Assembly: GCA_004356615.1 (NCBI GenBank)
Contig: SMWT01000159.1
Span: 1-42,625, forward strand
DNA length: 42,625 nucleotides
Source of the DNA: Deltaproteobacteria bacterium
GTDB lineage: Bacteria > Bdellovibrionota > Bacteriovoracia > Bacteriovoracales > Bacteriovoracaceae
Direction: 5' to 3'
Shown piece by piece: positions 9,798 to 20,746 of this stretch. Made by a program: the position numbers and the translations under genes. The notes below the pieces were generated by a model. It searched no databases, was not told the origin of the DNA, and saw nothing but the letters and a program-made list of their open reading frames with translations. How positions within the stretch are numbered: position 1 is the first letter of the stretch; every line of letters begins with the position of its first letter.

Positions 9798-11597
9798 ATG
9801 CATAATAAATATATTAGAAACTTCTCCATCATTGCTCATATCGACCACGGTAAATCTACCCTGGCAGATAGACTCTTAGAGTTTACCGGTACCGTCTCCG
9901 CTAGAGAGTCTAGAGATCGTCTTTTAGATAATATGGATATTGAGAGGGAGCGGGGAATCACCATAAAGGCGCAAACGGTTCGTCTTATTTATAAGGCAAA
10001 AGACGGCCAAGACTATGAGTTCAATTTAATCGACACCCCGGGACATGTGGATTTTAGCTACGAGGTGAGTAGATCCCTCGCTAGTTGTGATGGAGCACTT
10101 TTAGTGGTTGATGCCAGCCAAGGGGTTGAAGCGCAGACACTATCAAATGTTTATATGGCGCTGGAAAATGATTTAGAGATTATACCAGTGCTCAACAAGA
10201 TCGATCTGCCACATGCAGATGCCCCAAGAGTTAAAAACGAAATTGAAGAAATCATTGGCATCGAAGCGCAGGATGCTTGTGAGGTTTCTGCCAAATCAGG
10301 CCTAGGCATAGAAGATTTGTTGGAAACCATTGTTTTAAAAATTCCCCCACCAACTGGTGAGCGAGGTAACAAGCTGCAGGCGCTTATTTTTGATTCATGG
10401 TTTGATACCTATCAAGGGGTGGTGGTTTTAGTTCGAATTTTTGAAGGAACAATTAAACTTAAAGAAAAGATTCATTTTAAATATTCAGGTGAAAGCTATG
10501 AAGTTTTAAAACTGGGGGTGAACGCCCCCTTTTTTACGGAAGTAAAAGAGCTCGGTGCGGGTCAAGTTGGCATGATCATCTGTGGGGTTAAGACCATTCG
10601 CGATGTTAAAGTTGGCGATACCATTATTAGTGCTAAATATACTGATACTCCTACGCTGGAGGGGTTTAAGGAAAGTAAGCCCATGGTTTTTTGTGGCATC
10701 TTTCCGGTGGATAGTGTGGACCATTCTATTTTAAAAGAATCGCTGGAAAAACTAGCGCTCAATGATGCCTCTTTTACCTACGAGCCGGAAAACTCCAACG
10801 CTCTTGGACTGGGATTTAGATGTGGTTTTCTTGGGCTCCTGCATATGAATATTATTCAGGAGCGGCTTGAGCGGGAATTTGATTTAAATCTTATCAGCAC
10901 CGCCCCCTCTTGTAATTATATGGTGAAGACCACCAGAGGCGAAGAGATGATGGTGGATAATCCCGCGGATCTTCCCGATCAGACCTTAATAGAATCCATT
11001 AGTGAGCCTATTGTGCAAATTAATATCCATGTCCCCAACGAGTTCGTGGGCAATGTTATAAAACTTTGCAGTGAACGAAGGGGAGTGCAAAAGGATATGA
11101 AATATATCACCACTGAGCGGGTCCAGCTAATTTATGATCTACCGCTAGTGGAAATGGTTTTTGATTTTTATGATAAATTAAAGGGCATGACAAAAGGTTA
11201 TGCCAGTATGGATTATGAAGTGGTGGGTTATGAGGAATCTGATTTGGTAAAACTTGATATTTTATTAAATAACGATCCGGTAGATGCGCTCTCGCTAATT
11301 TGTCATAGATCAAGCGCTCAAGTTAAGGGACGGGAACTGGTTGGAAGGCTGAGAAAGCTGATCAATCGGCAACAATTTGATATTGCCATTCAAGCGGCGG
11401 TTGGGGCCAAGATCCTGGCCCGTGAAACAGTTAAAGCACTTCGCAAAAATGTTTTGGCCAAGTGTTACGGTGGCGATATTAGCCGTAAAAGAAAACTGCT
11501 GGAAAAACAAAAGAGGGGTAAAAAGCGAATGAAGATGGTTGGATCTGTGGAAGTTCCCCAATCTGCCTTCCTCGCAGTCTTAAAAACGGATAATTAA
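9798..11597 (+). CDS. lepA: Translation elongation factor 4 (LepA)
   Basis: Contains [28 protein letters not shown] and NKIDL GTPase motifs, plus the LepA C-terminal segment [25 protein letters not shown]. The ORF track begins at TTG 9780; ATG 9798 fits the usual N-terminus. Confidence 0.97.
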
Positions 11598-12193
11598 TGG
11601 AAACTAAAATTAGGGAAAATTTTGATAAGGCCATTTTAAATTACTCTAAGGATAAATTTAAAGGAGTTTATTTAAAGGCCAAGGATGAGTTTTTTGACCT
11701 CACTGGTTCGATTCATGCAGACCATGAAAACTTTGAACAGCGGATGAACTCTTTTTATGAGTGGTACTTTTTCAACTACAGTGAATCTAAAATTTTAAAA
11801 GACTACACTGCAAAGGATTCTTTTTTTAAAGATTTTAAATACTCCATCTTTGAATTTTCGGGAAAAAACTTAAGAGGCCGGTGTGTCTTTAAGGATTTTA
11901 TCGGCAAAGATAAAGTGCTGCTACCAAAAGGCGTTATGCCCCCGGGATTAACCAAAGATGATATAATCGTTGGCAGATTTATTGCCCTGGAGGAAGGACA
12001 CTACCTCTTACCAGGATTTTTTATCCTGCCAGGTAAAGTGAAATCCATTTTAAAACGTGAGGCCAGACGTATCGCTAAAATTAATGATGTGGATAAAAAA
12101 GAAGAATTTTTACTTAAAATCGAAACGCTCTATAATCGGTGGCGAAGCTACAACCACCTAGATCCGGCAAAAATATTTGTCTATGGGCCCTAG
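11597..12193 (+). CDS. Hypothetical protein, start overlaps the lepA stop codon
   Basis: 198-aa ORF whose ATG overlaps the lepA stop (TAATG). I recognised no domain. Confidence 0.5.
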   Translation: METKIRENFDKAILNYSKDKFKGVYLKAKDEFFDLTGSIHADHENFEQRMNSFYEWYFFNYSESKILKDYTAKDSFFKDFKYSIFEFSGKNLRGRCVFKDFIGKDKVLLPKGVMPPGLTKDDIIVGRFIALEEGHYLLPGFFILPGKVKSILKREARRIAKINDVDKKEEFLLKIETLYNRWRSYNHLDPAKIFVYGP

Positions 12194-13968
12194 TCCCAGA
12201 TTCTTTTATAAGACTTAATCATCTGATACATGTTGCTGTCCAGGGGACTGTTATTATATTTCTCGGCATAAAAGAGTACGTTATTTCCCTGATTATCTTT
12301 TATCTCCAGAGCAGGCCCAACGCTTATGAGTTCTTTGACAATTTTAAGCAGTCGGTTGTTGGCCTTGCCCCGCGATTTTAGCGCCACCATGAGCGGAGTT
12401 CGTCCCTTGGCATCTTGGGCCTCAATGGAAAACTCGGCGCCATTTGCTAAGAGTAGCTTGACCATCCTATCATCACGTCTGCCGGCAGCGATTGAGAGCG
12501 CATTTCTCTTATCTTTGGTTACAACATTGATCCTGGCACCAGCGTCGATCATTTTTTTTGCCGCTCCAAAGTTACCTTGTTCCACTATTTTTAAGAACTT
12601 CAAATCAGCTTTAATGGGATTAGGCCATTTGCCCTTGTAATAGACTAACTTAAATGGATTAGGGCCTTTCTTAAAGGTCATCTTTTTCCATTTTCTCAAA
12701 AGAGTGATATTTGGCCAAACGTAATTTTTTTTGGGGGGAGCTCTTTTGGCCCACTTTTTATAGCGGGCGATAGCAGGCCACTTGGGTTTTTCACCATCAA
12801 TATAGGGGCGGTTGTTAATGCCTGGGCCACTTTGCCTGGTGGATGCGGTATAGATTTTTTTAAGGGGGGCAAAAGGGCCTTTCCATTTTCGGGAATCTCG
12901 CAGCCAGGCATAATCTGGCCGCTCGTAAGAGCTCCAGGTGCCGCCGATAATATTATCGTCTTTATCCAGCTCAAGCAGATATTCATAATCTTTTATCCCA
13001 AAGCCTTTATGGGGTATTTTTGAAAACCAGCTTTGGTGCATTTCTTTGACGTAGTGAACTTTCACATGCACATAGACCACTTTTTCCGTTCCCTTGGCGG
13101 CACGGTCATGAGTTCTTTCTGGCAGCTGTTTCATCCTTTCAATGGAGTAACTATAGACTGGTTGATTCCAAACTTGACTTCCCCGGTCCACATCAATCAT
13201 AAAACCATGATTTAAAAGTCCAATTTGATTGGTTAAAACTACGTGAAAGGCACCCGCATTCACATCACCACATTCACCTCGTTCGCTGACTCCATAAAAC
13301 TCATCTTCGCTTAGCTTGCCAGCTTTAACTTGCGCCCATAGGGCGTCTAAGTCGTCAAAACATCTCTCGCCGATGGTTTTTTCGGGACTCACTTTATCCA
13401 TATCCAGCATAGAGGCGAGCAGTCCTTTTATATCTGAGGCGCCAAAGGGAATTCGATGACCTAGTTTGCCGGTTATCATTACTGGTTTGGGGTTATCAAA
13501 GGTGATGGTGGACTCACTCCAGGCATTACAAATTCCTGCCCAGTCATCAATCTTATATTTTGGATCGTATTGGGGAGAGCTTTTTATCTGGGTGTTGATT
13601 TTCGAGTAGTTCCTTTCACTTTTAACTGTGTCCCAATTTAGATTTCCCAGGTAGAGGTCGTATTTTTCGGCCGGAGATAGGGTGTTTAGATCCACTCCGG
13701 TCATATTTTTCATATCATGGAGGGGGTAGTCCCAATATTTGCTACTATCTTTTACCCCTTTCAGGTTCCAACGATAGGTAATTCCCCCGTCCATATGCGG
13801 CCAATAGTTTCCCGTCCAGGGATAGGTTTTAAGCTCTCCGGATTTGGGAAGCTTACTTAGCCGGTATTCATAGTTTTTATCAATTTGCCAGTGGGGATTA
13901 TTGCGGTAGTTCCAAGACTTGGCGCCTGCTTCAATGGAAAATAATGATAAGAGAATTATCCACTTCAA
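12190..13968 (-). CDS. Secreted GP42-type transglutaminase-elicitor-like domain protein with C-terminal ankyrin repeats
   Basis: The TTG start has AAGGAG 6 nt upstream. The signal peptide is (M)KWIILLSLFSIEAGA. A Cys-containing WAGICNAW motif has its Cys codon at 13528-13530. An exact VWNQPV match to the Pep-13 core sits at 13156-13173. The C-terminal ankyrin repeats (NALSIAAGRRDDRMVKLLLANGAEF, GRTPLMVAL...) span about 12214-12576. Confidence 0.7.
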   Translation of the reverse strand: MKWIILLSLFSIEAGAKSWNYRNNPHWQIDKNYEYRLSKLPKSGELKTYPWTGNYWPHMDGGITYRWNLKGVKDSSKYWDYPLHDMKNMTGVDLNTLSPAEKYDLYLGNLNWDTVKSERNYSKINTQIKSSPQYDPKYKIDDWAGICNAWSESTITFDNPKPVMITGKLGHRIPFGASDIKGLLASMLDMDKVSPEKTIGERCFDDLDALWAQVKAGKLSEDEFYGVSERGECGDVNAGAFHVVLTNQIGLLNHGFMIDVDRGSQVWNQPVYSYSIERMKQLPERTHDRAAKGTEKVVYVHVKVHYVKEMHQSWFSKIPHKGFGIKDYEYLLELDKDDNIIGGTWSSYERPDYAWLRDSRKWKGPFAPLKKIYTASTRQSGPGINNRPYIDGEKPKWPAIARYKKWAKRAPPKKNYVWPNITLLRKWKKMTFKKGPNPFKLVYYKGKWPNPIKADLKFLKIVEQGNFGAAKKMIDAGARINVVTKDKRNALSIAAGRRDDRMVKLLLANGAEFSIEAQDAKGRTPLMVALKSRGKANNRLLKIVKELISVGPALEIKDNQGNNVLFYAEKYNNSPLDSNMYQMIKSYKRIWD

Positions 13969-14009
13969 ACCTAACTCCTTGGTGTGTTTTATTTATTTAA
14001 ACACAAGCG

Positions 14010-14981
14010 TTAGGCCTGTTCAAGCGTGAGCTTTTCCTTCTTGGTGGAAAACAGGTAGGGGAAAACTCCCATAAGGTTAACAGAAACGATTGCCAGAAAA
14101 TAAAGATTAAACATGGAGGCGCCCCCAGAGATACCGTAGTAACCAAATAGGGTGCCAAAAATTGCGTGTCCCACGCCCATGCCAGCGGGGGAGATGGGAA
14201 TTGCGGTGGCAATAAGTCCAAGCGGGACAAAAGTGAAGGCCTTGCCCAGAGAGAGAGGAGCATCGAAAAATGGTTTACTTATTAAATAAATAGCGCAGAC
14301 ATTATTGGCCTGAAAAACCATGGACATAAAAAGACATTTTAAAATTACGATCTTATTTTCACCCATGGCCCAAATTTGTGCCAGGGTCTTTTCTATTTGG
14401 TGTCCGATCAAGGGTATCTTATCGGCGAGTCGGAGAAATCTGTTTTTTTGATTTTTAGGCATAAACAGGGTGATGAAAAATCCCATGGAGCCCAAAAGAA
14501 GCAAGAGGTTCATATGAACAAGTCTTTTCATCAGCGGGGAGATGGTAATGAGATCACTGTAGTTAATTATGGTGAAAATCCCCAGCAGAAATAAAAGGCC
14601 TATTAAACCAATAATCCGGTCCACCAAGGTCGACATTAAAAGATAGGTTTTAGTGAGGCGATCATCTAGTTTTTTGGCCATGACCGCTTTAACTAAATCT
14701 CCGGTAACGGCGCCGGGAAGGATGGAGCTAAAAAGTAGTCCGATCCAATTTAGCTTTAGTACTTCAAAAAAGGGAAGAGGTTTGGATTTTATCTCTAAAA
14801 GTAGTTTCCACCGATAAGCGGTACCTGCGGCGGAAAAGACGATCATCAAAATGGTTAGAAGAACCAGTCCCGAGTGCTGGGTGAGGGCATATCCGGCGGT
14901 GGCAAACTCCAGGTCTCCTTTCTTGATGAGCCAATAAAGAAGTCCTCCGGCAAAGATAAATTTAAGTGCAAGCTTGATCAC
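14010..14981 (-). CDS. Flippase-like / lysylphosphatidylglycerol-synthase TM-domain family membrane protein (UPF0104)
   Basis: 323-aa polytopic protein with a GTG start. It contains RWKLLL and ILPGAVTGDLVKA motifs recalled from TIGR00374-type proteins. Confidence 0.6.
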   Translation of the reverse strand: MIKLALKFIFAGGLLYWLIKKGDLEFATAGYALTQHSGLVLLTILMIVFSAAGTAYRWKLLLEIKSKPLPFFEVLKLNWIGLLFSSILPGAVTGDLVKAVMAKKLDDRLTKTYLLMSTLVDRIIGLIGLLFLLGIFTIINYSDLITISPLMKRLVHMNLLLLLGSMGFFITLFMPKNQKNRFLRLADKIPLIGHQIEKTLAQIWAMGENKIVILKCLFMSMVFQANNVCAIYLISKPFFDAPLSLGKAFTFVPLGLIATAIPISPAGMGVGHAIFGTLFGYYGISGGASMFNLYFLAIVSVNLMGVFPYLFSTKKEKLTLEQA

Positions 14982-15797: not shown

Positions 15798-16042
15798 GGA
15801 TTGGAACCAGTAGCGTGATCGGTGATGTCGACTACTTCTGTGATCTCTGGAAAATGTTTGTGTACCAGGGTTTCTATTCCCTGTTTTACCGTTTCGATGG
15901 AAGCGCTACAGCCGTGGCATCCGCCCGTCATCTTAATAAAAAGCTGATTGTTGTCCACATCGATAATCTCCACGTTTCCGCCGTGGGATTTAAGGGCAGG
16001 TCTCACCTGTTCGTCTAAGAGTTTTTCAAGTTTTCTAATCAT
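15788..16042 (-). CDS. NifU-like Fe-S cluster assembly domain protein
   Basis: 84 aa with VRPALKSHGGNVEIIDV and GGCHGCSAS motifs, as in Nfu-type C-terminal domains. Confidence 0.85.
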   Translation of the reverse strand: MIRKLEKLLDEQVRPALKSHGGNVEIIDVDNNQLFIKMTGGCHGCSASIETVKQGIETLVHKHFPEITEVVDITDHATGSNPYM

Positions 16043-16917
16043 TTTATAGGCCTAAAGTTTTTATATTCACCAATTCGATAACCGGTTAATGATTCCACAA
16101 AATCAGAAAACATTAAACCGAAATCTTTAAAGGAGAAGGTATATTTTAGGGATAATAGATCCACATCGTTTCTATTTTCCACAATCCATTTTTTCATCAC
16201 CTTGGGATGGGTGTTTTTAAAGGGTTTAAGGCCCCACATATTTTGATAGGTGTGACCAATCTCTTCGTGATCCTGCCCATGATAAAGCTTGGAGAAGCTT
16301 TTTACTTTTTGATCCATCACCTGTTCTTTTCTGGCCCAGCCATAGTGAAAGATTCGTGCTTCAATTTGTTTGCAATGTAGCTTTTTTCCATCAAGGGTTC
16401 TAAATCCTTGAGCGTCCTTCCAAGATTTAACATTTTTATTTCTAACCAGTCTGACTTCCCTGCGGTAGGTATTTCTGGTGTATTTGATGATATCTACGTT
16501 GCCGTAAAAATGCAGGTATCTGAAAATCAGGCCATCAATATGGGGATTTTTTTTCATCTCCTGGATGCCATCATAGATAATATCGAGATCTTTTTCATGA
16601 ACCGCTTCATCGCCTTGAATGTATTGGATAAATTTTCCCCGCGCTTTTTTAAGACTTAAGTTTGTTTGCTCGCTAAGGATTTCCCCATCATCAGTTTTGC
16701 TTGGATCCCACCAGGATTTAAAGAAGATGTATTTGTCACCTGGGAAAGCATTTTTTAAATAGACGTAAGTGCCATCATCCTGCTCGCATTTGGGATCGTC
16801 AAAGCCCACGTTGATGATGACCTCATCGCAAAGTGGAGAGATACTCTCAATCGCCTCCTTAATGGGATATTCAAGAGTGAGAGCATTTTTTATAAAGGTG
16901 ATTCCTGATACTTCCAT
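16039..16917 (-). CDS. Glycosyltransferase-like protein (GT-A fold, family 2-like), tentative
   Basis: 292-aa ORF lying 3 nt downstream of rsmE and overlapping nifU-like by 4 nt. An N-terminal GT-A-like beta strand and a QGDE (DxD-like) motif are the only support, and they are weak. Confidence 0.4.
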   Translation of the reverse strand: MEVSGITFIKNALTLEYPIKEAIESISPLCDEVIINVGFDDPKCEQDDGTYVYLKNAFPGDKYIFFKSWWDPSKTDDGEILSEQTNLSLKKARGKFIQYIQGDEAVHEKDLDIIYDGIQEMKKNPHIDGLIFRYLHFYGNVDIIKYTRNTYRREVRLVRNKNVKSWKDAQGFRTLDGKKLHCKQIEARIFHYGWARKEQVMDQKVKSFSKLYHGQDHEEIGHTYQNMWGLKPFKNTHPKVMKKWIVENRNDVDLLSLKYTFSFKDFGLMFSDFVESLTGYRIGEYKNFRPIK

Positions 16918-17639: not shown

Positions 17640-18758
17640 GTGAGTATAAAAAATAGGTGGTTTTGCCTAGAAAAATTTCAATATGGGAAAAAATACCTAA
17701 GGGATTTCAAGTACTTAAAGAGATCCTTTCTATCCTTGGCTTTCATAGAGAGAGTCATGGACGTCTCTTTTATAAATACCCTGTTATCGCCGGGAAATTT
17801 CTTGTTGATGCTGGCCCCGCCGGGTTGGGGCAAGACCCGGATACTCAGATCGCTATACAGCGAGTTTGATCGCAAAATTATTTTTATCTCCCCCCTTAAG
17901 GCCTTGGCCATGGAGTTCGCTGAAGCTTCTGAAGAGCTTGGAAACATTTTATATATTTCTAAAAGAAGTGAGCGGGGTAAATTGCATCAGTTCATTAAAA
18001 AGAGAAAAGCGCTTTTAGTGTTAACTCCTGAGATGATGGATGAGAATTATTTTTTAGAGCTCTCTTCTCTGGGCGAAAAATACCTTTTGGTTTTGGATGA
18101 GTTTCATCTTTTTTATTTTTGGGGGTGGGATTTTAGGCCGCTTTTGTGGGAGAGCGCCATGGGGCTGGCAGAGACGGGGATTGCCATTTTAGGTTTAAGT
18201 GCCACCTTTGGAGATGAGTGGATAGAGCAGTGGCAAAAGGATTTTAAAAATAGTCAGGAAAATTTAATTCTAATAAATCTGGGAAATCAGGTTTTAAAAA
18301 ATCATCCGATACATATTTATAAGCTACCCTTTAAAAATATGTTTATGAGAAGGTTTTTCTTTGAAATGCAAGGCGAGGGAGTGATCCTTTATTTTTGCAA
18401 ATATAGATCTGAAGTGGATTTTTATGTGGAGTATTTTACCCTAAGAGGTGTTGATGTTTTGGGTTGCAAAGGAGGCGAGGTGGCCCATTTTGTAAAAAAT
18501 TTGAAAAAGATGCCAAATCCACAGTGTATTTTTGCTACCAGCGCATTAAGTCATGGTGTCAACCTACCCTCCATAAAAAAGATCTTCATTGGTTTTAAAG
18601 TATTGGATTTAAACTTTTGGATTCAAATGGTAGGAAGAGGAGGACGCCGGGGAGAACCCTTTGAACTCTTTCATCAGGATAAGTTTGCGGGGCAATTTAA
18701 GCTAAGAGTCTTCCTCTTTGATTTTTATTTGCGTCTGATAAACTTGTTGAAATTATGA
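17640..18758 (+). CDS. Minimal RecQ-like superfamily-2 helicase core (no Zn-binding, winged-helix or HRDC domains)
   Basis: Helicase motifs: I APPGWGKT, Ia ISPLKALAMEF, II LDEFHLFYFWGWDFRP (RecQ-type DExH..WGxDFRP), III LSATF, V ATSALSHGVNLP, VI QMVGRGGRRG. The start is uncertain: GTG 17640 lies only 5 nt from the divergent rsmE start, and ATG 17757 is the alternative. The stop overlaps the recO start (ATGA). Confidence 0.75.
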   Translation: MSIKNRWFCLEKFQYGKKYLRDFKYLKRSFLSLAFIERVMDVSFINTLLSPGNFLLMLAPPGWGKTRILRSLYSEFDRKIIFISPLKALAMEFAEASEELGNILYISKRSERGKLHQFIKKRKALLVLTPEMMDENYFLELSSLGEKYLLVLDEFHLFYFWGWDFRPLLWESAMGLAETGIAILGLSATFGDEWIEQWQKDFKNSQENLILINLGNQVLKNHPIHIYKLPFKNMFMRRFFFEMQGEGVILYFCKYRSEVDFYVEYFTLRGVDVLGCKGGEVAHFVKNLKKMPNPQCIFATSALSHGVNLPSIKKIFIGFKVLDLNFWIQMVGRGGRRGEPFELFHQDKFAGQFKLRVFLFDFYLRLINLLKL

Positions 18759-19537
18759 GAGTAAAAGTAGAAGGCCTGCTCATTTCTAAAATTCCTTTTG
18801 GTGATAAACATTTTATCGCCAAACTTTTACTTAGAAATGGCAAAAAAATATCTGTTGTTTTTTACGGTGCCCGGGGAGCGGGGAAAAAACGAACATCTTC
18901 TTTGGCCGATCTCGGGCATATGCTCGCGGTAGAACTAGGAAGAGCTAAATACGGTGAACACCTCTATCCCGCTAAAGAATGGTCCCTTATCTGGGCACCT
19001 AAAAAAATAAGAGAAGATTACAAAGCGTTCTCCCTAATGAGCCTCTATTTTGAAATTGTTGCCAAGTTTTGCCTGGAAGATCATCTTGAAACAGAAAGTG
19101 ATGAGCACGACGGCCCTTTTAGAGTGCTCTCCAACGCTGTTTTTTTTCTAGAGGACAGTTTAAAAAAGGGAGACTTTAACCCCTATGAACAGTTGCTGCT
19201 TTTTCTGGGAAAAGTTTTTCAGGATCAAGGTATTTTTCCTAAAATGGGGGACTGTATATTTTGTGATAGAAAGTTAGAGCATGTTTCCCAGATGAGTCTG
19301 GTTTTTGAACAGGGAGGATTTTCCTGTTCCCTATGCCTGGGCCCACAATCTGAAGGAGTGGGCCGGGATGCCTGGCAATTTTTAAATATGGTGAGATCTA
19401 GCAGCTATCAAGATTTCTCCTTTAAAACCCTTGAATTTCAAAGTATTAAGTCTCTCTGCCAACTGCTATTAGGGCATTTTTGTTATCAATTTCATCTTGA
19501 GGAAAGGCAGTTTAGAGCGTTGCCTATGGTGCTCTGA
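18755..19537 (+). CDS. recO: DNA repair protein RecO
   Basis: Starts MRVKVEGLLISKIPFGDKHFIAKLLLRNGKKISVVFYGARG, an OB-fold N-terminus. A Cys4 zinc motif is present (CIFCDRKL...CSLC). The last 39 codons are duplicated at 20791-20910. Confidence 0.85.
   Translation: MRVKVEGLLISKIPFGDKHFIAKLLLRNGKKISVVFYGARGAGKKRTSSLADLGHMLAVELGRAKYGEHLYPAKEWSLIWAPKKIREDYKAFSLMSLYFEIVAKFCLEDHLETESDEHDGPFRVLSNAVFFLEDSLKKGDFNPYEQLLLFLGKVFQDQGIFPKMGDCIFCDRKLEHVSQMSLVFEQGGFSCSLCLGPQSEGVGRDAWQFLNMVRSSSYQDFSFKTLEFQSIKSLCQLLLGHFCYQFHLEERQFRALPMVL
19418..19533 (+). repeat. Direct repeat, left copy (in-frame 3' end of recO)
   Basis: 116 nt identical base for base to 20791-20906 (offset 1373 nt), checked by eye across the full length. 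Confidence 0.95.
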
Positions 19538-19667: not shown

Positions 19668-20045
19668 ATGACGACACTCACCCTAAGCAATGCCCCCATT
19701 TATGATGATAATGGGGCCTTAAACTTACCTTATTTAGTAGATAGCTATGGCCTGACCAGAAAGGAATTTGCTGAAATTTCTGGAGTAAGTGTAAGCACCC
19801 TTAGTAGATCAGGCCCCCCTTCCCCTCATACTAAATCGAGAGTGGTAGAGCTTGTGGGGATCTATGTCCTGCTTTGGAAAATAAGCAAAGGAAATGAAGA
19901 GCAAATCAAGTCATGGCTTGATGAGCCAAAAGCAGAGTATTGGGGTCTTTCCCCTATTCAATTTATGAAAATTGATAACGAGAATATTTCTACTGTTTTC
20001 AAAAATATCCGTGAAATGGAATACGGAGAGGCCATGGGAACATGA
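19668..20045 (+). CDS. Xre-family antitoxin with DUF2384 (MbcA/ParS-like toxin-binding) domain
   Basis: HTH segment LTRKEFAEISGVSVSTLSR. The C-terminal WLDEPKAEYWGLSPIQFM is typical of DUF2384. The stop overlaps the toxin start (ATGA). Confidence 0.8.
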   Translation: MTTLTLSNAPIYDDNGALNLPYLVDSYGLTRKEFAEISGVSVSTLSRSGPPSPHTKSRVVELVGIYVLLWKISKGNEEQIKSWLDEPKAEYWGLSPIQFMKIDNENISTVFKNIREMEYGEAMGT

Positions 20046-20746
20046 AAGAAGAATCTATTCACCATTATCTATCAAAGATTATTCAGGATTTTTCTGTCGG
20101 ATTAAGTCTTGAAGAAAATAAAGTTCATCAGAAAATAAGGTGGATTAAGGAACATAAACTTGAAATCTTAAATTATTTTGAGTCTTTGGCCAAGAGGCCC
20201 CATAACTCCCTTTCCTCAACTTCTACTAAAAAAATAACGGGAGACAATTGGTTCAGGGCCGTTACCTATGATTATTCAAAAATACCTTTAAGCTTTGAAG
20301 GTTCTTTAAAAAGTTTTGCAAGGTTTCATCGGGTAGGTCAACCTACCATTTATCTTGCTGAGAGCTATAAAACCGCAATGGAGGAAGTTCGATTTTCTAA
20401 AAACTTAGTTGCCATGACTACCTTTGGAATAAAAATTAACCTGCAAAGGATTCTCGATCTATCAGGTTCTGGAAATCTCTACAAAAATTTTAGGATTTCT
20501 AAAAATTACTTTAAAGGTCCCTGGGAACAATTCTCAAATATTGGGCTGGAATACTATACCCATTATTTAAGTGACCATTTAAGAAAACTTCCAATTGAAG
20601 GTTTTTTATATGAGTCTAACGCCAATCCAAAAAATATTTGCCTTTGCCTCTTTCCTGAAAAAATGATTAAAGGCTCAACTCTTCAGGTAATCGGTGATTA
20701 TATTGAAATAAATTCAAATGATCTTTATTTTGAAGGGATGGCATAA
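20042..20746 (+). CDS. RES-domain toxin (MbcT/Res-type, NAD+-degrading family)
   Basis: RES signature positions: ARFHRVGQPTIYLAES (Arg), AMEEV (Glu), GFLYESNANP...CLCLFPEK (Ser). It is paired with a DUF2384 antitoxin. It has an N-terminal extension of about 70 aa. Confidence 0.75.
   Translation: MKEESIHHYLSKIIQDFSVGLSLEENKVHQKIRWIKEHKLEILNYFESLAKRPHNSLSSTSTKKITGDNWFRAVTYDYSKIPLSFEGSLKSFARFHRVGQPTIYLAESYKTAMEEVRFSKNLVAMTTFGIKINLQRILDLSGSGNLYKNFRISKNYFKGPWEQFSNIGLEYYTHYLSDHLRKLPIEGFLYESNANPKNICLCLFPEKMIKGSTLQVIGDYIEINSNDLYFEGMA

What the first reader, a model, noticed from the sequence alone, without database searches (positions are those of the whole stretch)
12190..13968. Secreted oomycete-type (GP42/Pep-13) transglutaminase-elicitor domain fused to ankyrin repeats
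The 592-aa protein has several distinctive parts:
- a signal peptide;
- a Cys motif WAGICNAW (Cys147, codon 13528-13530), followed by AGAFHVV and IDVD, which are candidate His/Asp partners;
- the hexapeptide VWNQPV (aa 266-271, nt 13156-13173).

VWNQPV is the exact core of Pep-13 (VWNQPVRGFKVYE). Pep-13 is the plant-immunity elicitor epitope of the Phytophthora sojae GP42 Ca2+-dependent transglutaminase. That family is known mainly from oomycetes and a few marine bacteria such as Vibrio.

Here the domain is followed by a K/W/P-rich linker and about three ankyrin repeats (about nt 12214-12576). Ankyrin repeats are typical of proteins that act on another cell's proteins. I do not know of a TGase-elicitor/ankyrin fusion. 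In a possibly predatory or host-associated bacterium it would be a candidate protein-crosslinking effector.
Basis: partly seen in the sequence, partly recalled or inferred. Interest (0 to 1): 0.75.

Follow-up and report, generated by a model that had tools for sequence, protein, structure and literature searches.

The report
Exported GP42-like transglutaminase–ankyrin protein, altered site
A predatory-lineage bacterium (Bacteriovoracales) encodes an exported protein joining a Phytophthora GP42-type transglutaminase-like domain to ankyrin repeats. This design is common but unstudied in these bacteria, and this copy lacks the histidine that a published structural survey names as GP42's catalytic His.

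Summary
ORF 12190-13968(-) encodes 592 aa with a signal-peptide-like N-terminus, a TGase_elicitor domain (PF16683, E 1.3e-36; Foldseek top hit 3TW5/GP42, TM 0.71), a basic K/W/P linker and about four ankyrin repeats. Every motif sits at the stated coordinates.

- VWNQPV is a family-conserved motif: it is exact in 65 of the 120 closest homologs. It is neither a coincidence nor specific to Pep-13.
- The ankyrin fusion is not unique. It occurs in 31 of the 120 closest homologs, mostly unnamed metagenomic proteins; the named ones are Bacteriovoracales-type.
- The family is large: 2153 clusters at 50% identity, and at least 551 genomic loci, mostly Bdellovibrionota with several paralogs per genome. 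The reviews I read still say "oomycetes and Vibrio only".
- Cys147 aligns with GP42 Cys290. GP42's catalytic His, as named in a published structural survey, is the residue next to the Cys (the "CH" motif). Here it is Asn (WAGICNAW). The active-site helix is specifically remodelled in this small orthologous clade.

His-less variants recur across the family and nearly all keep the Cys, as well as His242, Asp259 and Asn268. I therefore favour an altered but still thiol-dependent enzyme over a dead one. Cross-linking activity is unproven.

The parts
13975..13980 (-). Shine-Dalgarno AAGGAG, 6 nt upstream of the TTG start
   Evidence: Read directly from the sequence. The same SD and TTG are present in orthologous loci L001 and L005.
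12190..13968 (-). Whole CDS: 592 aa, TTG start, TAG stop at 12190-12192
   Evidence: the ORF listing. An identical protein occurs on two JGI metagenome contigs. Between orthologs pN is 0.08-0.2 while pS is saturated near 0.7, which indicates strong purifying selection.
13921..13968 (-). Sec-type signal peptide, aa 1-16, with predicted cleavage at AGA|KS
   Evidence: Heuristic only: a hydrophobic core with mean Kyte-Doolittle 2.5 and an A-x-A site. Homologs have similar N-termini ending just before the conserved W-[ND]-x-x-N-x-P.
12799..13914 (-). GP42-type (TGase_elicitor, papain-like) domain, aa 19-390; Pfam match aa 31-360
   Evidence: PF16683 E 1.3e-36. 3tw5_A sequence E 2.9e-17. AF2 pLDDT is mostly above 85. 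Foldseek versus 3tw5_A gives E 1.2e-18 and TMt 0.71.
13510..13542 (-). Active-site helix motif WAGICNAWSES (aa 143-153). Cys147 is at 13528-13530. Asn148 at 13525-13527 replaces the family's His.
   Evidence: The family consensus is W-E-G-[LI]-C-H-A-W-A-P-A: 115 of the 120 closest homologs have CH, as does GP42. Five of nine conserved columns here are changed, against 6 of 77 elsewhere; Fisher p = 0.0013. The helix starts at residue 147 in the model.
13243..13245 (-). His242 (in AGAFHVV), an invariant family residue equivalent to GP42 His368
   Evidence: His in 125 of 127 representatives. It lies in helix 238-251 of the model.
13192..13194 (-). Asp259 (first D of IDVD), an invariant family residue equivalent to GP42 Asp385, at the end of strand 256-259
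   Evidence: 122 D and 3 E among 127 representatives. Secondary structure.
13156..13173 (-). VWNQPV, the Pep-13 core. Trp267 and Asn268 are near-invariant, and Asn268 opens the long strand 268-281.
   Evidence: Identical to GP42 in the aligned block. Exact in 65 of the 120 closest homologs. Asn268 is present in 124 of 127 representatives. Pep-13 = VWNQPVRGFKVYE (PMC9879208).
13270..13362 (-). Cys203 (13360-13362) and Cys233 (13270-13272). These are the only other cysteines. They are invariant in the bacterial family and probably form a disulfide.
   Evidence: Invariant columns. GP42 has Phe and Tyr at these positions. The disulfide is an inference, consistent with an extracytoplasmic location.
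12622..12798 (-). Basic K/W/P-rich linker, aa 391-449, predicted disordered, with two copies of WPxIxxx[KR]KWxK (aa 396-409 and 417-430)
   Evidence: pLDDT below 50 for aa 393-449. For the wider stretch aa 361-450, pI is 10.7 with 24 K/R against 2 D/E. The linker is conserved among orthologs, with pN about 0.1. Other Ank-fused homologs have a different, longer linker.
12193..12621 (-). Ankyrin-repeat domain, aa 450-592, about four helix-pair repeats
   Evidence: Ank_2 E 2.4e-12 with Ank, Ank_4 and Ank_5. AF2 pLDDT about 85-97. DARPin and 4ANK matches with TMt up to 0.88. Collinear with the Ank module of CH-type homolog P0007: 30% identity, E 7e-14.
14010..14981 (-). Upstream co-directional gene for an LPG_synthase_TM-family membrane protein, separated by a 41-nt gap (possibly co-transcribed)
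   Evidence: PF03706 E 1.4e-34. The adjacency is kept in orthologous loci L001-L005 but not next to paralogs. No promoter-like or terminator-like site lies in the gap. A functional link is not shown.

Best explanation
The gene encodes a Sec-exported, three-part protein of an uncultured Bacteriovoracales bacterium (the Bdellovibrio-and-like-organisms lineage).

Part 1 is an N-terminal papain-fold domain of the GP42/TGase_elicitor family. Part 2 is a strongly basic, Trp/Pro-rich, probably disordered linker. Part 3 is a C-terminal ankyrin-repeat module.

It belongs to a large multi-paralog family of exported proteins in Bdellovibrionota. In that family a conserved enzyme-like head is combined with variable C-terminal binding modules: ankyrin, MVL lectin, CUB or none.

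This gene and its few orthologs form a small, isolated clade. In it the nucleophile Cys147 and the invariant core (His242, Asn247, Asp259, Trp267-Asn268) are kept. The residue after the Cys, which is His in GP42 and in about 85-90% of the family, is Asn, and the surrounding helix is remodelled.

I infer that the protein is still a thiol-dependent acyl-transfer or amidase-type enzyme with changed reactivity or substrate, not a canonical GP42-like cross-linker. I also infer that the ankyrin repeats and the basic linker tether it to a protein or an anionic envelope target, in the predator's own periplasm or envelope or in the prey's.

Shown: the homology, fold, architecture, residue states, purifying selection, family distribution and lineage. 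Inferred: export, retained catalysis, the nature of the reaction and the target.
For: Homology and fold: PF16683 E 1.3e-36 and Ank_2 E 2.4e-12; 3TW5 by sequence and by fold, TMt 0.71.

The gene is functional:
- pN is 0.08-0.2 against saturated pS in all three parts.
- The TTG start and SD are conserved.
- Synteny with lepA, orf198, LPG_synthase_TM and CN_hydrolase is conserved.

Family scale and lineage:
- 705 word-index hits, 2153 clusters at 50% identity and at least 551 genomic loci, mostly Bacteriovoracaceae, Oligoflexia and Silvanigrellaceae, with 3-4 paralogs per genome.
- LepA's named relatives are Bacteriovoracales.

Variable C-terminal modules: Ank in 31 of the 120 closest homologs, MVL lectin and CUB.

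Residue after the Cys:
- CH in 115 of the 120 closest homologs; CN only in the window protein and P0002-P0004.
- Helix changes are enriched, Fisher p = 0.0013.

Evidence for retained chemistry:
- Among 241 family sequences the residue after the Cys is H 218, N 15, D 4, and P, Q, A, E once each.
- In a 127-sequence subset, Cys is kept in 126, His242 in 125, Asp259 in 122 (plus 3 Glu) and Asn268 in 124.
- Most of the His-less representatives outside the window's clade have a His-type sequence as nearest neighbour, which suggests several independent replacements.
- Polar N, D, Q and E replacements with an always-kept Cys look like an auxiliary triad position, not decay.
- PMC10318531 records that Streptomyces transglutaminase has His and Asp swapped. 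From my own memory, not checked here, the Asp rather than the His is the essential partner in that enzyme.

Ankyrin proteins working in a BALO periplasm have a precedent in Bd3460 (PMC4686830).
Against: - The only mechanistic statement I could read (PMC10318531, citing Reiss 2011) names the His next to the Cys as GP42's catalytic His. That His is absent here, and in classical papain-fold enzymes loss of the His abolishes activity.
- Beyond His to Asn, this clade has also lost other near-invariant residues (Glu144, Arg121, Thr122, Pro152). That pattern also fits a pseudoenzyme.
- I could not obtain model coordinates, so I do not know whether His242 or Asp259 lies next to Cys147.
- No bacterial member of this family has been assayed.
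- Export rests on a heuristic reading of the N-terminus.
- Nothing identifies the target. The conserved neighbours are housekeeping genes.
Confidence: 0.5

Rival explanations
1. Pseudoenzyme. Loss of the catalytic His (CH to CN), together with remodelling of the active-site helix, has inactivated the GP42-type domain. The protein then works only by binding, as a scaffold, decoy or regulator. The old substrate cleft, the basic linker and the ankyrin repeats would hold envelope or prey proteins, or the substrates or enzymes of its active CH-type paralogs.
For: - His after the Cys is present in 115 of the 120 closest homologs and in GP42, and is named as the catalytic His.
- Five of nine conserved helix columns have changed, and Arg121 and Thr122 are lost.
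- The closest genome (QNFX01) also carries CH-type paralogs, L006 and L011, so an intact copy coexists with the CN copy.
- Inactive transglutaminase-fold proteins are well known: EPB42, FBXO21 and XPC are listed in PMC10318531.
- Strong purifying selection is equally compatible with a binding function.
Against: - Cys147 is kept in all four clade members down to 51% identity. It is also kept in every His-less representative in which the motif is recognisable, across apparently independent losses. Classic pseudo-transglutaminases have lost the Cys.
- The other invariant core residues (His242, Asn247, Asp259, Asn268) are all retained.
- Replacements at position 148 are restricted to polar N, D, Q and E.
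Confidence: 0.3
2. This is a fully competent GP42-like Ca2+-dependent transglutaminase that uses a Cys147-His242-Asp259 triad. It is secreted and cross-links proteins of another cell (prey or host), with the ankyrin repeats choosing the target.
For: - The fold and the Cys alignment with GP42.
- His242 and Asp259 are invariant across the family and in GP42.
- The Pep-13 core is intact.
- The organism belongs to a predatory lineage.
- The pattern of an exported head plus a variable targeting module is typical of effectors.
Against: - PMC10318531 assigns GP42's catalytic His to the position after the Cys, which is Asn here.
- The active-site helix differs from all canonical paralogs at Glu144, His148, Ala151, Pro152 and Ala153, so identical chemistry and specificity are unlikely.
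- No transglutaminase activity has been shown for any bacterial member.
- The gene sits among housekeeping genes, with no secretion-system or predation-island context.
Confidence: 0.15
3. Effector aimed at a eukaryote. Because ankyrin repeats are typical of bacteria that live in eukaryotic cells, the protein would target a protist or animal host rather than bacterial prey.
For: - Weak NCBIfam similarity to Legionella Dot/Icm Ank effectors (AnkG, AnkY, AnkX), with E values from 1e-11 to 1e-4.
- The GP42 family is otherwise known from eukaryotic pathogens (PMC4915311).
Against: - Those NCBIfam scores are far below the cut-offs (44 against 500 bits). They cover only the generic ankyrin region.
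- The protein has a Sec-type N-terminus rather than a T4SS context.
- The lineage preys on bacteria, and a BALO periplasmic ankyrin protein, Bd3460, is known to bind bacterial enzymes.
Confidence: 0.05

Closest known systems
Phytophthora sojae GP42 Ca2+-dependent transglutaminase (PDB 3TW5; Pfam PF16683 TGase_elicitor; source of the Pep-13/Pep-25 plant MAMPs)
   Same: - Same Pfam family and fold.
- The nucleophile Cys is aligned: Cys147 with Cys290.
- The invariant residues His368, Asp385 and Asn394 correspond to His242, Asp259 and Asn268.
- The VWNQPV Pep-13 core is identical.
- Both are secreted.
   Different: - About 21% identity in the Foldseek alignment.
- GP42's His291, next to the Cys, is Asn here.
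- Bacterial-family features absent from GP42: the Cys203 and Cys233 pair, the LSPAEKYD and ERxRT motifs, the C-terminal linker and the ankyrin repeats.
- The organism is a bacterial predator lineage, not an oomycete.
- The rest of Pep-13 (RGFKVYE) is not conserved; here it reads YSYSIER.
CH-type TGase_elicitor-ankyrin proteins of Bacteriovoracales and Oligoflexia (for example P0005-P0009, P0021, P0035; NCBI 'ankyrin repeat domain-containing protein [Bacteriovoracales bacterium]'). All are uncharacterised.
   Same: - Same order of parts: signal peptide, GP42-type domain, linker, ankyrin module.
- Collinear alignment over 93-97% of the query for several of these (P0007, P0021, P0035).
- The Ank module shares an atypical long third repeat.
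   Different: - These homologs keep WEGxCHAWAPA.
- They have a longer K/E/R-rich helical linker and one more ankyrin repeat.
- The window's clade has CN, a remodelled helix and a distinct K/W/P linker.
- Identity is only 31-44%, and the window's clade is a single isolated 50%-identity cluster.
Streptomyces mobaraensis microbial transglutaminase (Cys-Asp-His, with His and Asp swapped)
   Same: A papain-fold transglutaminase in which the classical His role is not played by a His at the canonical place (PMC10318531). It offers a functional analogy for a Cys plus Asp core that can tolerate loss of a His.
   Different: It belongs to a different family and no sequence similarity was detected here. 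The idea that Asp259 plays the role of the Streptomyces Asp is an inference, not a tested result.
Bdellovibrio bacteriovorus Bd3460, a periplasmic ankyrin-repeat self-protection protein (PMC4686830)
   Same: A signal-peptide-bearing ankyrin-repeat module acting in the periplasm of a predatory bacterium, where it binds an envelope-acting enzyme.
   Different: Bd3460 is a stand-alone protein of six repeats that inhibits DD-endopeptidases in trans. Here the repeats are fused to the enzyme-like domain. No partner is known and no homology beyond generic ankyrin similarity has been shown.
Catalytically inactive transglutaminase-fold proteins (erythrocyte protein 4.2/EPB42, FBXO21, XPC)
   Same: They are precedents for transglutaminase-fold domains retained as binding modules after loss of catalytic residues (PMC10318531). 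Protein 4.2 is part of the erythrocyte ankyrin complex (abstracts).
   Different: They belong to a different family, Transglut_core. From my memory, protein 4.2 lost the nucleophile Cys itself, whereas here the Cys is strictly kept.

Membership tests
GP42 / TGase_elicitor (Pfam PF16683) | Profile-HMM match above the curated gathering score | tested here: met
   126.6 bits against a cut-off of 25; E 1.3e-36; aa 31-360 cover profile positions 11-335 of 361.
GP42 / TGase_elicitor (Pfam PF16683) | Fold of the GP42 crystal structure (3TW5) | tested here: met
   AF2 model with mean pLDDT 85. Foldseek top hit 3tw5_A: E 1.2e-18, TM 0.71 normalised on the target, 21% identity.
GP42 / TGase_elicitor (Pfam PF16683) | Nucleophile Cys (GP42 Cys290) at the N-terminus of the active-site helix | tested here: met
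   Cys147 aligns with residue 290 of the C290S crystal chain, WFGISHAWS. The helix spans 147-156 in the model.
GP42 / TGase_elicitor (Pfam PF16683) | 'CH' motif: the catalytic His immediately after the Cys (GP42 His291), as described in PMC10318531 citing Reiss 2011 | tested here: not met
   The residue is Asn148 (WAGICNAW). His is present in 115 of the 120 closest homologs and in GP42. However, about 10% of 241 family sequences also lack it.
GP42 / TGase_elicitor (Pfam PF16683) | Other invariant core residues (GP42 His368, Asn373, Asp385, Trp393-Asn394) and the Pep-13 core | tested here: met
   His242, Asn247, Asp259, Trp267 and Asn268 are present, and VWNQPV is exact.
GP42 / TGase_elicitor (Pfam PF16683) | Ca2+-dependent transglutaminase (Gln-Lys cross-linking) activity | not testable with these tools
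   This needs a biochemical assay. No bacterial member has been assayed in the literature I searched.
GP42 / TGase_elicitor (Pfam PF16683) | Secreted or extracytoplasmic location | tested here: inconclusive
   The N-terminus looks like a signal peptide with an A-x-A site, homologs have similar N-termini, and there is a conserved Cys pair. No dedicated predictor and no experiment were available.
Ankyrin repeat proteins (Pfam Ank clan) | HMM matches above cut-off and a stacked helix-pair repeat fold | tested here: met
   Ank_2 47.7 bits (cut-off 27.3), Ank 30.2 (21.1), Ank_4 25.3 (22.7), Ank_5 27.1 (27). Four helix pairs lie between aa 452 and 591 with pLDDT about 85-97. DARPin and 4ANK matches reach TMt 0.88.
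Legionella Dot/Icm ankyrin effectors (NCBIfam AnkG/AnkZ, AnkY, AnkX equivalogs) | Whole-protein score above the equivalog cut-off | tested here: not met
   44, 32 and 20 bits against cut-offs of 500, 600 and 1400. Only the generic ankyrin region matches.
Pseudo-transglutaminases (inactive transglutaminase-fold binding proteins) | Loss of catalytic residues with retention of the fold | tested here: inconclusive
   The His next to the Cys is lost and the helix is remodelled. The nucleophile Cys and all other invariant core residues are retained, here and in the other His-less lineages.
Anti-phage defence proteins (PADLOC) | Match of the non-ankyrin part to a defence-system model | tested here: not met
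   Only the ankyrin region (aa 459-576) hits PDC-M72A and the 'Ankyrin' model. The two neighbouring genes have no hits.

The most novel reading that the evidence does not exclude
The GP42/Pep-13 transglutaminase family may primarily be an arsenal of exported enzymes of predatory Bdellovibrionota, with thousands of members, several paralogs per genome and swappable targeting modules such as ankyrin repeats. Its catalytic core would then be Cys plus the invariant Asp and His (Asp259, His242), not the published 'CH' dyad. On that reading the CN-type ankyrin fusion in this window is an active enzyme that modifies the prey or predator envelope and has a new specificity. BALO-like bacteria, rather than Vibrio, would be the reservoir from which oomycetes acquired the Pep-13-bearing enzyme.
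Probability: 0.15. Interest if true: 0.75.

Novelty: new variant of a known kind. Interest (0 to 1): 0.45.

Why it matters
GP42 is a classic plant-immunity elicitor. Reviews still describe its family as confined to oomycetes and a few Vibrio (PMC4915311). The searches here show that the family is far larger and is centred on predatory Bdellovibrionota. There it occurs as multi-copy, exported proteins with interchangeable C-terminal binding modules. I found no paper on these bacterial members.

For predator biology, this marks out an untested family of candidate envelope- or prey-acting proteins.

For enzymology, the residue after the Cys varies naturally (H, N, D, Q, E) while the Cys, His242 and Asp259 stay invariant. 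That gives a direct, cheap test of which residues really form the GP42 catalytic centre.

The particular gene in this window is a divergent, conserved member whose active site has been rebuilt. It is a natural experiment on that question, but not in itself a radically new kind of system.

Tried and rejected
- **Primary papers.** I tried to read Reiss et al. 2011 (PMC3234954 and its DOI), Brunner et al. 2002 (PMC139088) and the P. melonis acyltransferase paper (PMC7841795). None is held. Searches for Cys290, His291 and C290S found nothing relevant. The triad assignment therefore rests on PMC10318531 alone.
- **Relocated catalytic His.** The clade has two clade-specific invariant His residues, His58 (family Thr/Ser) and His287. 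Other His-less lineages do not have His58, and one CH-type protein does. There is therefore no covariation support, and I could not test it without coordinates.
- **Simple dead-enzyme reading.** This was my working view. I weakened it after the unbiased representative search showed recurrent, apparently independent His to Asn or Asp replacements in which the Cys is always kept.
- **Paralog in the window.** None found by tblastn.
- **Operon or functional link with neighbours.** LPG_synthase_TM, orf198 and lepA are adjacent only next to orthologs, not paralogs. The promoter and terminator scan gave no more hits than shuffled sequence.
- **Defence-system or T4SS-effector membership.** Only generic ankyrin matches.
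- **Model geometry.** The structure tool returns no coordinates or PAE. Cys-His and Cys-Asp distances and any docking of the ankyrin domain onto the head could not be examined.
- **Tree.** The neighbour-joining tree shows the CN clade as monophyletic on a long stem. Its placement is not reliable enough to say whether the ankyrin fusion was inherited or regained.

Full report
**1. The observation**

The ORF is present as described: 12190..13968 on the minus strand, 592 aa, TTG start. An AAGGAG Shine-Dalgarno sequence lies 6 nt upstream. The same TTG and SD occur in two orthologous loci. The first in-frame Met is residue 59, inside the conserved domain, so the TTG is the only sensible start.

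- WAGICNAW, aa 143-150, Cys147 codon at 13528-13530
- AGAFHVV, aa 238-244
- IDVD, aa 258-261
- VWNQPV, aa 266-271, nt 13156-13173

Pfam gives TGase_elicitor (PF16683) at E 1.3e-36 over aa 31-360, and Ank_2, Ank, Ank_4 and Ank_5 over aa 462-559. The only non-ankyrin solved structure that matches is 3TW5, the P. sojae GP42 transglutaminase, at E 2.9e-17 over aa 33-359.

An AlphaFold2 model built on a 57-sequence alignment has mean pLDDT 85. The head (aa 23-390) and the ankyrin module (aa 450-589) are confident; the linker (aa 393-449) is below 50. Foldseek against the PDB puts 3tw5_A first, with E 1.2e-18 and TM 0.71 on the target. The C-terminus matches DARPins and 4ANK at TM up to 0.88. The model shows four helix pairs, so there are about four repeats rather than three.

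The N-terminus, (M)KWIILLSLFSIEAGA|KS, looks like a Sec signal peptide, and most homologs have similar N-termini. This is a heuristic call because no SignalP was available.

The protein has three cysteines. Cys203 and Cys233 are invariant in the bacterial family. That fits a disulfide in an exported protein, which is an inference.

**2. VWNQPV is homology, not coincidence and not a special link to Pep-13**

Pep-13 is VWNQPVRGFKVYE (PMC9879208). The hexapeptide lies in the aligned block with GP42. It is exact in 65 of the 120 closest homologs and in 107 of 245 family sequences. VWNQPI and VWNHPV are the common variants. Trp267 and Asn268 are essentially invariant. Asn268 opens the long strand 268-281 in the model.

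PMC10318531 mentions a catalytically important Asn on strand beta-2 of GP42. I infer, without having tested it, that this is the Pep-13 Asn. That would explain why the motif is conserved across kingdoms. The C-terminal half of Pep-13 is not conserved here (YSYSIER).

**3.

Reviews state that GP42 homologs occur only in oomycetes and some marine Vibrio (PMC4915311). The searches here show otherwise:
- The word-index search found 705 relatives.
- The exhaustive HMMER search of 1.84 billion cluster representatives found 2153 clusters at E <= 1e-3 and 1498 at E <= 1e-10.
- The scan of one genome per species found at least 551 loci.

The best 80 loci are almost all Bdellovibrionota: Bacteriovoracaceae, Halobacteriovorax, Bacteriovorax, Oligoflexia, Silvanigrellaceae and Pseudobdellovibrionaceae. 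Single genomes carry three or four paralogs.

Of the 120 closest proteins, 31 carry PF16683 plus ankyrin domains. JGI already labels one 'Transglutaminase elicitor/Ankyrin repeats', and NCBI labels others 'ankyrin repeat domain-containing protein [Bacteriovoracales bacterium]'. Other members carry a C-terminal MVL mannan-binding domain or a CUB domain.

The general design is therefore an exported enzyme-like head with interchangeable binding tails. All 15 papers found with 'TGase_elicitor', 'PF16683' or 'transglutaminase elicitor' concern oomycetes. A search combining transglutaminase, Bdellovibrio and ankyrin found nothing on this family. The architecture is known to databases but not described in the papers I could search.

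**4. Organism and context**

The window's LepA is 93% identical to that of a MAG deposited as 'Epsilonproteobacteria bacterium'. Its next named relatives are Bacteriovoracales (82%), Bacteriovoracaceae (79%), and Halobacteriovoraceae and Halobacteriovorax marinus (76%). The window therefore comes from an uncultured Bacteriovoracales bacterium, a member of the Bdellovibrio-and-like-organisms lineage. The 'Epsilonproteobacteria' label looks wrong.

The gene sits among housekeeping genes: LptF/G, TrkH/TrkA, lepA, an RNA methyltransferase, a DEAD helicase, an ABC exporter, and, in the syntenic ortholog contig L001, GlyRS and PPDK. The order CN_hydrolase / LPG_synthase_TM, then TGase-Ank, then (convergent) orf198 and lepA is kept in orthologous contigs at 79-83% protein identity. 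It is not kept next to paralogs. The window contains no paralog.

Between orthologs, synonymous sites are saturated (pS about 0.7) while pN is 0.08-0.2 in the head, the linker and the ankyrin part. The whole protein, including the 'disordered' basic linker, is under strong purifying selection.

**5.

PMC10318531, citing Reiss et al. 2011, states that GP42 lacks a His at the canonical papain position. Instead it uses the His immediately after the Cys, the 'CH' motif. That His is said to be salt-bridged to an Asp on a nearby non-core helix and to interact with an Asn on beta-2. The 3TW5 chain is the C290S mutant, and its WFGISHAWS aligns with WAGICNAWS.

GP42 His291, however, corresponds to Asn148.

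Among the 120 closest homologs, 115 have W-E-G-[LI]-C-H-x-W. Only the window protein and its three nearest relatives have WAGICNAW: P0002 (83% identity), P0003 (79%) and P0004 (51%).

The clade-specific replacements of otherwise conserved residues cluster on this helix. The family's WEGLCHAWAPA becomes WAGICNAWSES. Five of nine conserved columns in 143-153 are changed, against 6 of 77 elsewhere (Fisher p = 0.0013). Arg121-Thr122 also becomes Tyr-Ser.

The clade is one isolated cluster at 50% identity. The score falls from 761 bits to 314 bits at the next representative. It is monophyletic on a long stem in the neighbour-joining tree. The closest genome also has CH-type paralogs.

**6. Why I do not simply call it a dead enzyme**

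In the unbiased sample of cluster representatives, the residue after the Cys varies as follows among 241 sequences:

| Residue after Cys | Sequences |
|---|---|
| His | 218 |
| Asn | 15 (11 outside this clade) |
| Asp | 4 |
| Pro, Gln, Ala, Glu | 1 each |

Most of the His-less representatives outside the window's clade have a His-type sequence as nearest neighbour, so the replacement appears to have happened several times. Most of the other Asn-type lineages keep the rest of the helix close to canonical, and most keep Arg121 and Thr122.

In a 127-sequence subset, the Cys is kept in 126, His242 in 125, Asp259 in 122 (plus 3 Glu) and Asn268 in 124.

A position that accepts H, N, D, Q and E next to an always-kept nucleophile behaves like the auxiliary (third) residue of papain-fold triads, not like an indispensable base. 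The canonical strand positions are occupied by invariant Asp259 and Asn268. PMC10318531 notes that Streptomyces transglutaminase has His and Asp swapped. From memory, unchecked, the Asp is the essential partner in that enzyme.

That is an inference which the tools could not test, because no model coordinates are returned.

A specific 'relocated His' idea gained no covariation support. It involved the clade-specific His58 or His287 (tested).

**7. Most likely mechanism**

Shown:
- A three-part protein with a signal-peptide-like N-terminus, made of a GP42-fold head with the nucleophile and invariant core intact, a remodelled helix, a basic Trp/Pro-rich linker (pI 10.7, with two WPxIxxx[KR]KWxK copies) and about four ankyrin repeats.
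- Strong purifying selection over the whole protein.
- Membership of a paralog-rich family of Bdellovibrionota.

Inferred:
- It is exported to the periplasm or beyond.
- The head still does thiol chemistry (acyl transfer, deamidation or hydrolysis), with altered reactivity or substrate relative to its CH-type paralogs.
- The ankyrin repeats bind a protein partner, as the periplasmic ankyrin protein Bd3460 does in Bdellovibrio (PMC4686830).
- The basic linker binds an anionic envelope component.

**8. Comparison and novelty**

By HMM, fold, nucleophile and Pep-13 core, this protein is a member of the TGase_elicitor family. It fails one feature that PMC10318531 treats as catalytic, the 'CH' His.

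It is not a member of the Legionella ankyrin effector families: scores are 44 bits or lower against cut-offs of 500 or higher. It is not a member of any PADLOC defence family either; only ankyrin matches were found.

I rate it a new variant of a known kind. The ankyrin-fused architecture is already in databases, though unstudied. The CN-type rebuilt active site and the K/W/P linker are specific to a small clade.

The more interesting result is at family level. There is a very large, unreported expansion of the Pep-13 transglutaminase family in predatory bacteria. Natural variation in that family also questions which residues form its catalytic centre.

Interest: 0.45.

Noticed in passing
window 19668-20746 (+): A RES-domain toxin gene (20042-20746; PF08808, E 1e-13) is preceded by an overlapping 125-aa ORF (19668-20045), which the contig annotation flags faintly as Xre-like HTH. 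The pair is present in the window and in the near-identical contigs L003 and L004. It is absent from the syntenic relative L001, where the 260-aa ORF is followed directly by the ABC exporter. This looks like a small toxin-antitoxin insertion.
   Followed up: partly
window 11597-12193 (+): A 198-aa ORF has no Pfam or PADLOC match. It starts within lepA's stop (TAATG), which suggests translational coupling. It ends convergently against the TGase-Ank gene so that the two stop codons share the palindrome CTAG (12190-12193). It is conserved at 79-83% identity in orthologous loci. Function unknown.
   Followed up: partly
L005, L006, L011 (GenBank QNFX01, 'Epsilonproteobacteria bacterium isolate B11_G4'): The closest genome is deposited as Epsilonproteobacteria. 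Its LepA-type relatives and its TGase_elicitor paralogs group with Bacteriovoracales, Bacteriovoracaceae and Halobacteriovorax, so the taxonomic label is probably wrong.
   Followed up: partly
family-wide (P0056, P0059, P0104; L015): Some TGase_elicitor proteins carry other C-terminal modules in place of ankyrin repeats: an MVL mannan-binding lectin domain (PF12151) or a CUB domain (PF00431). This suggests carbohydrate- or protein-targeted variants of the same head.
   Followed up: partly
family-wide (for example P0163, P0167, P0194, P0217, P0223, P0226, P0239, P0240, P0245; L039, L047, L064, L030): Further lineages replace the His after the Cys with Asn, Asp, Gln, Glu, Ala or Pro while keeping the Cys, His242, Asp259 and Asn268. 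In these lineages the rest of the helix mostly stays close to canonical, unlike in the window's clade.
   Followed up: partly
window 16039-16917 (-) and 18755-19537 (+): Two conserved ORFs (292 aa and 260 aa) have no Pfam match. They flank an RNA methyltransferase and a DEAD-box helicase, and both are syntenic in L001, L003 and L004.
   Followed up: no
window 14010-14981 (-): An LPG_synthase_TM-family (PF03706) membrane protein gene lies 41 nt upstream of, and co-directional with, the TGase-Ank gene. No promoter-like or terminator-like site lies between them, so they may be co-transcribed. Members of this family modify or flip membrane lipids, so a link to the envelope is conceivable but untested.
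   Followed up: partly
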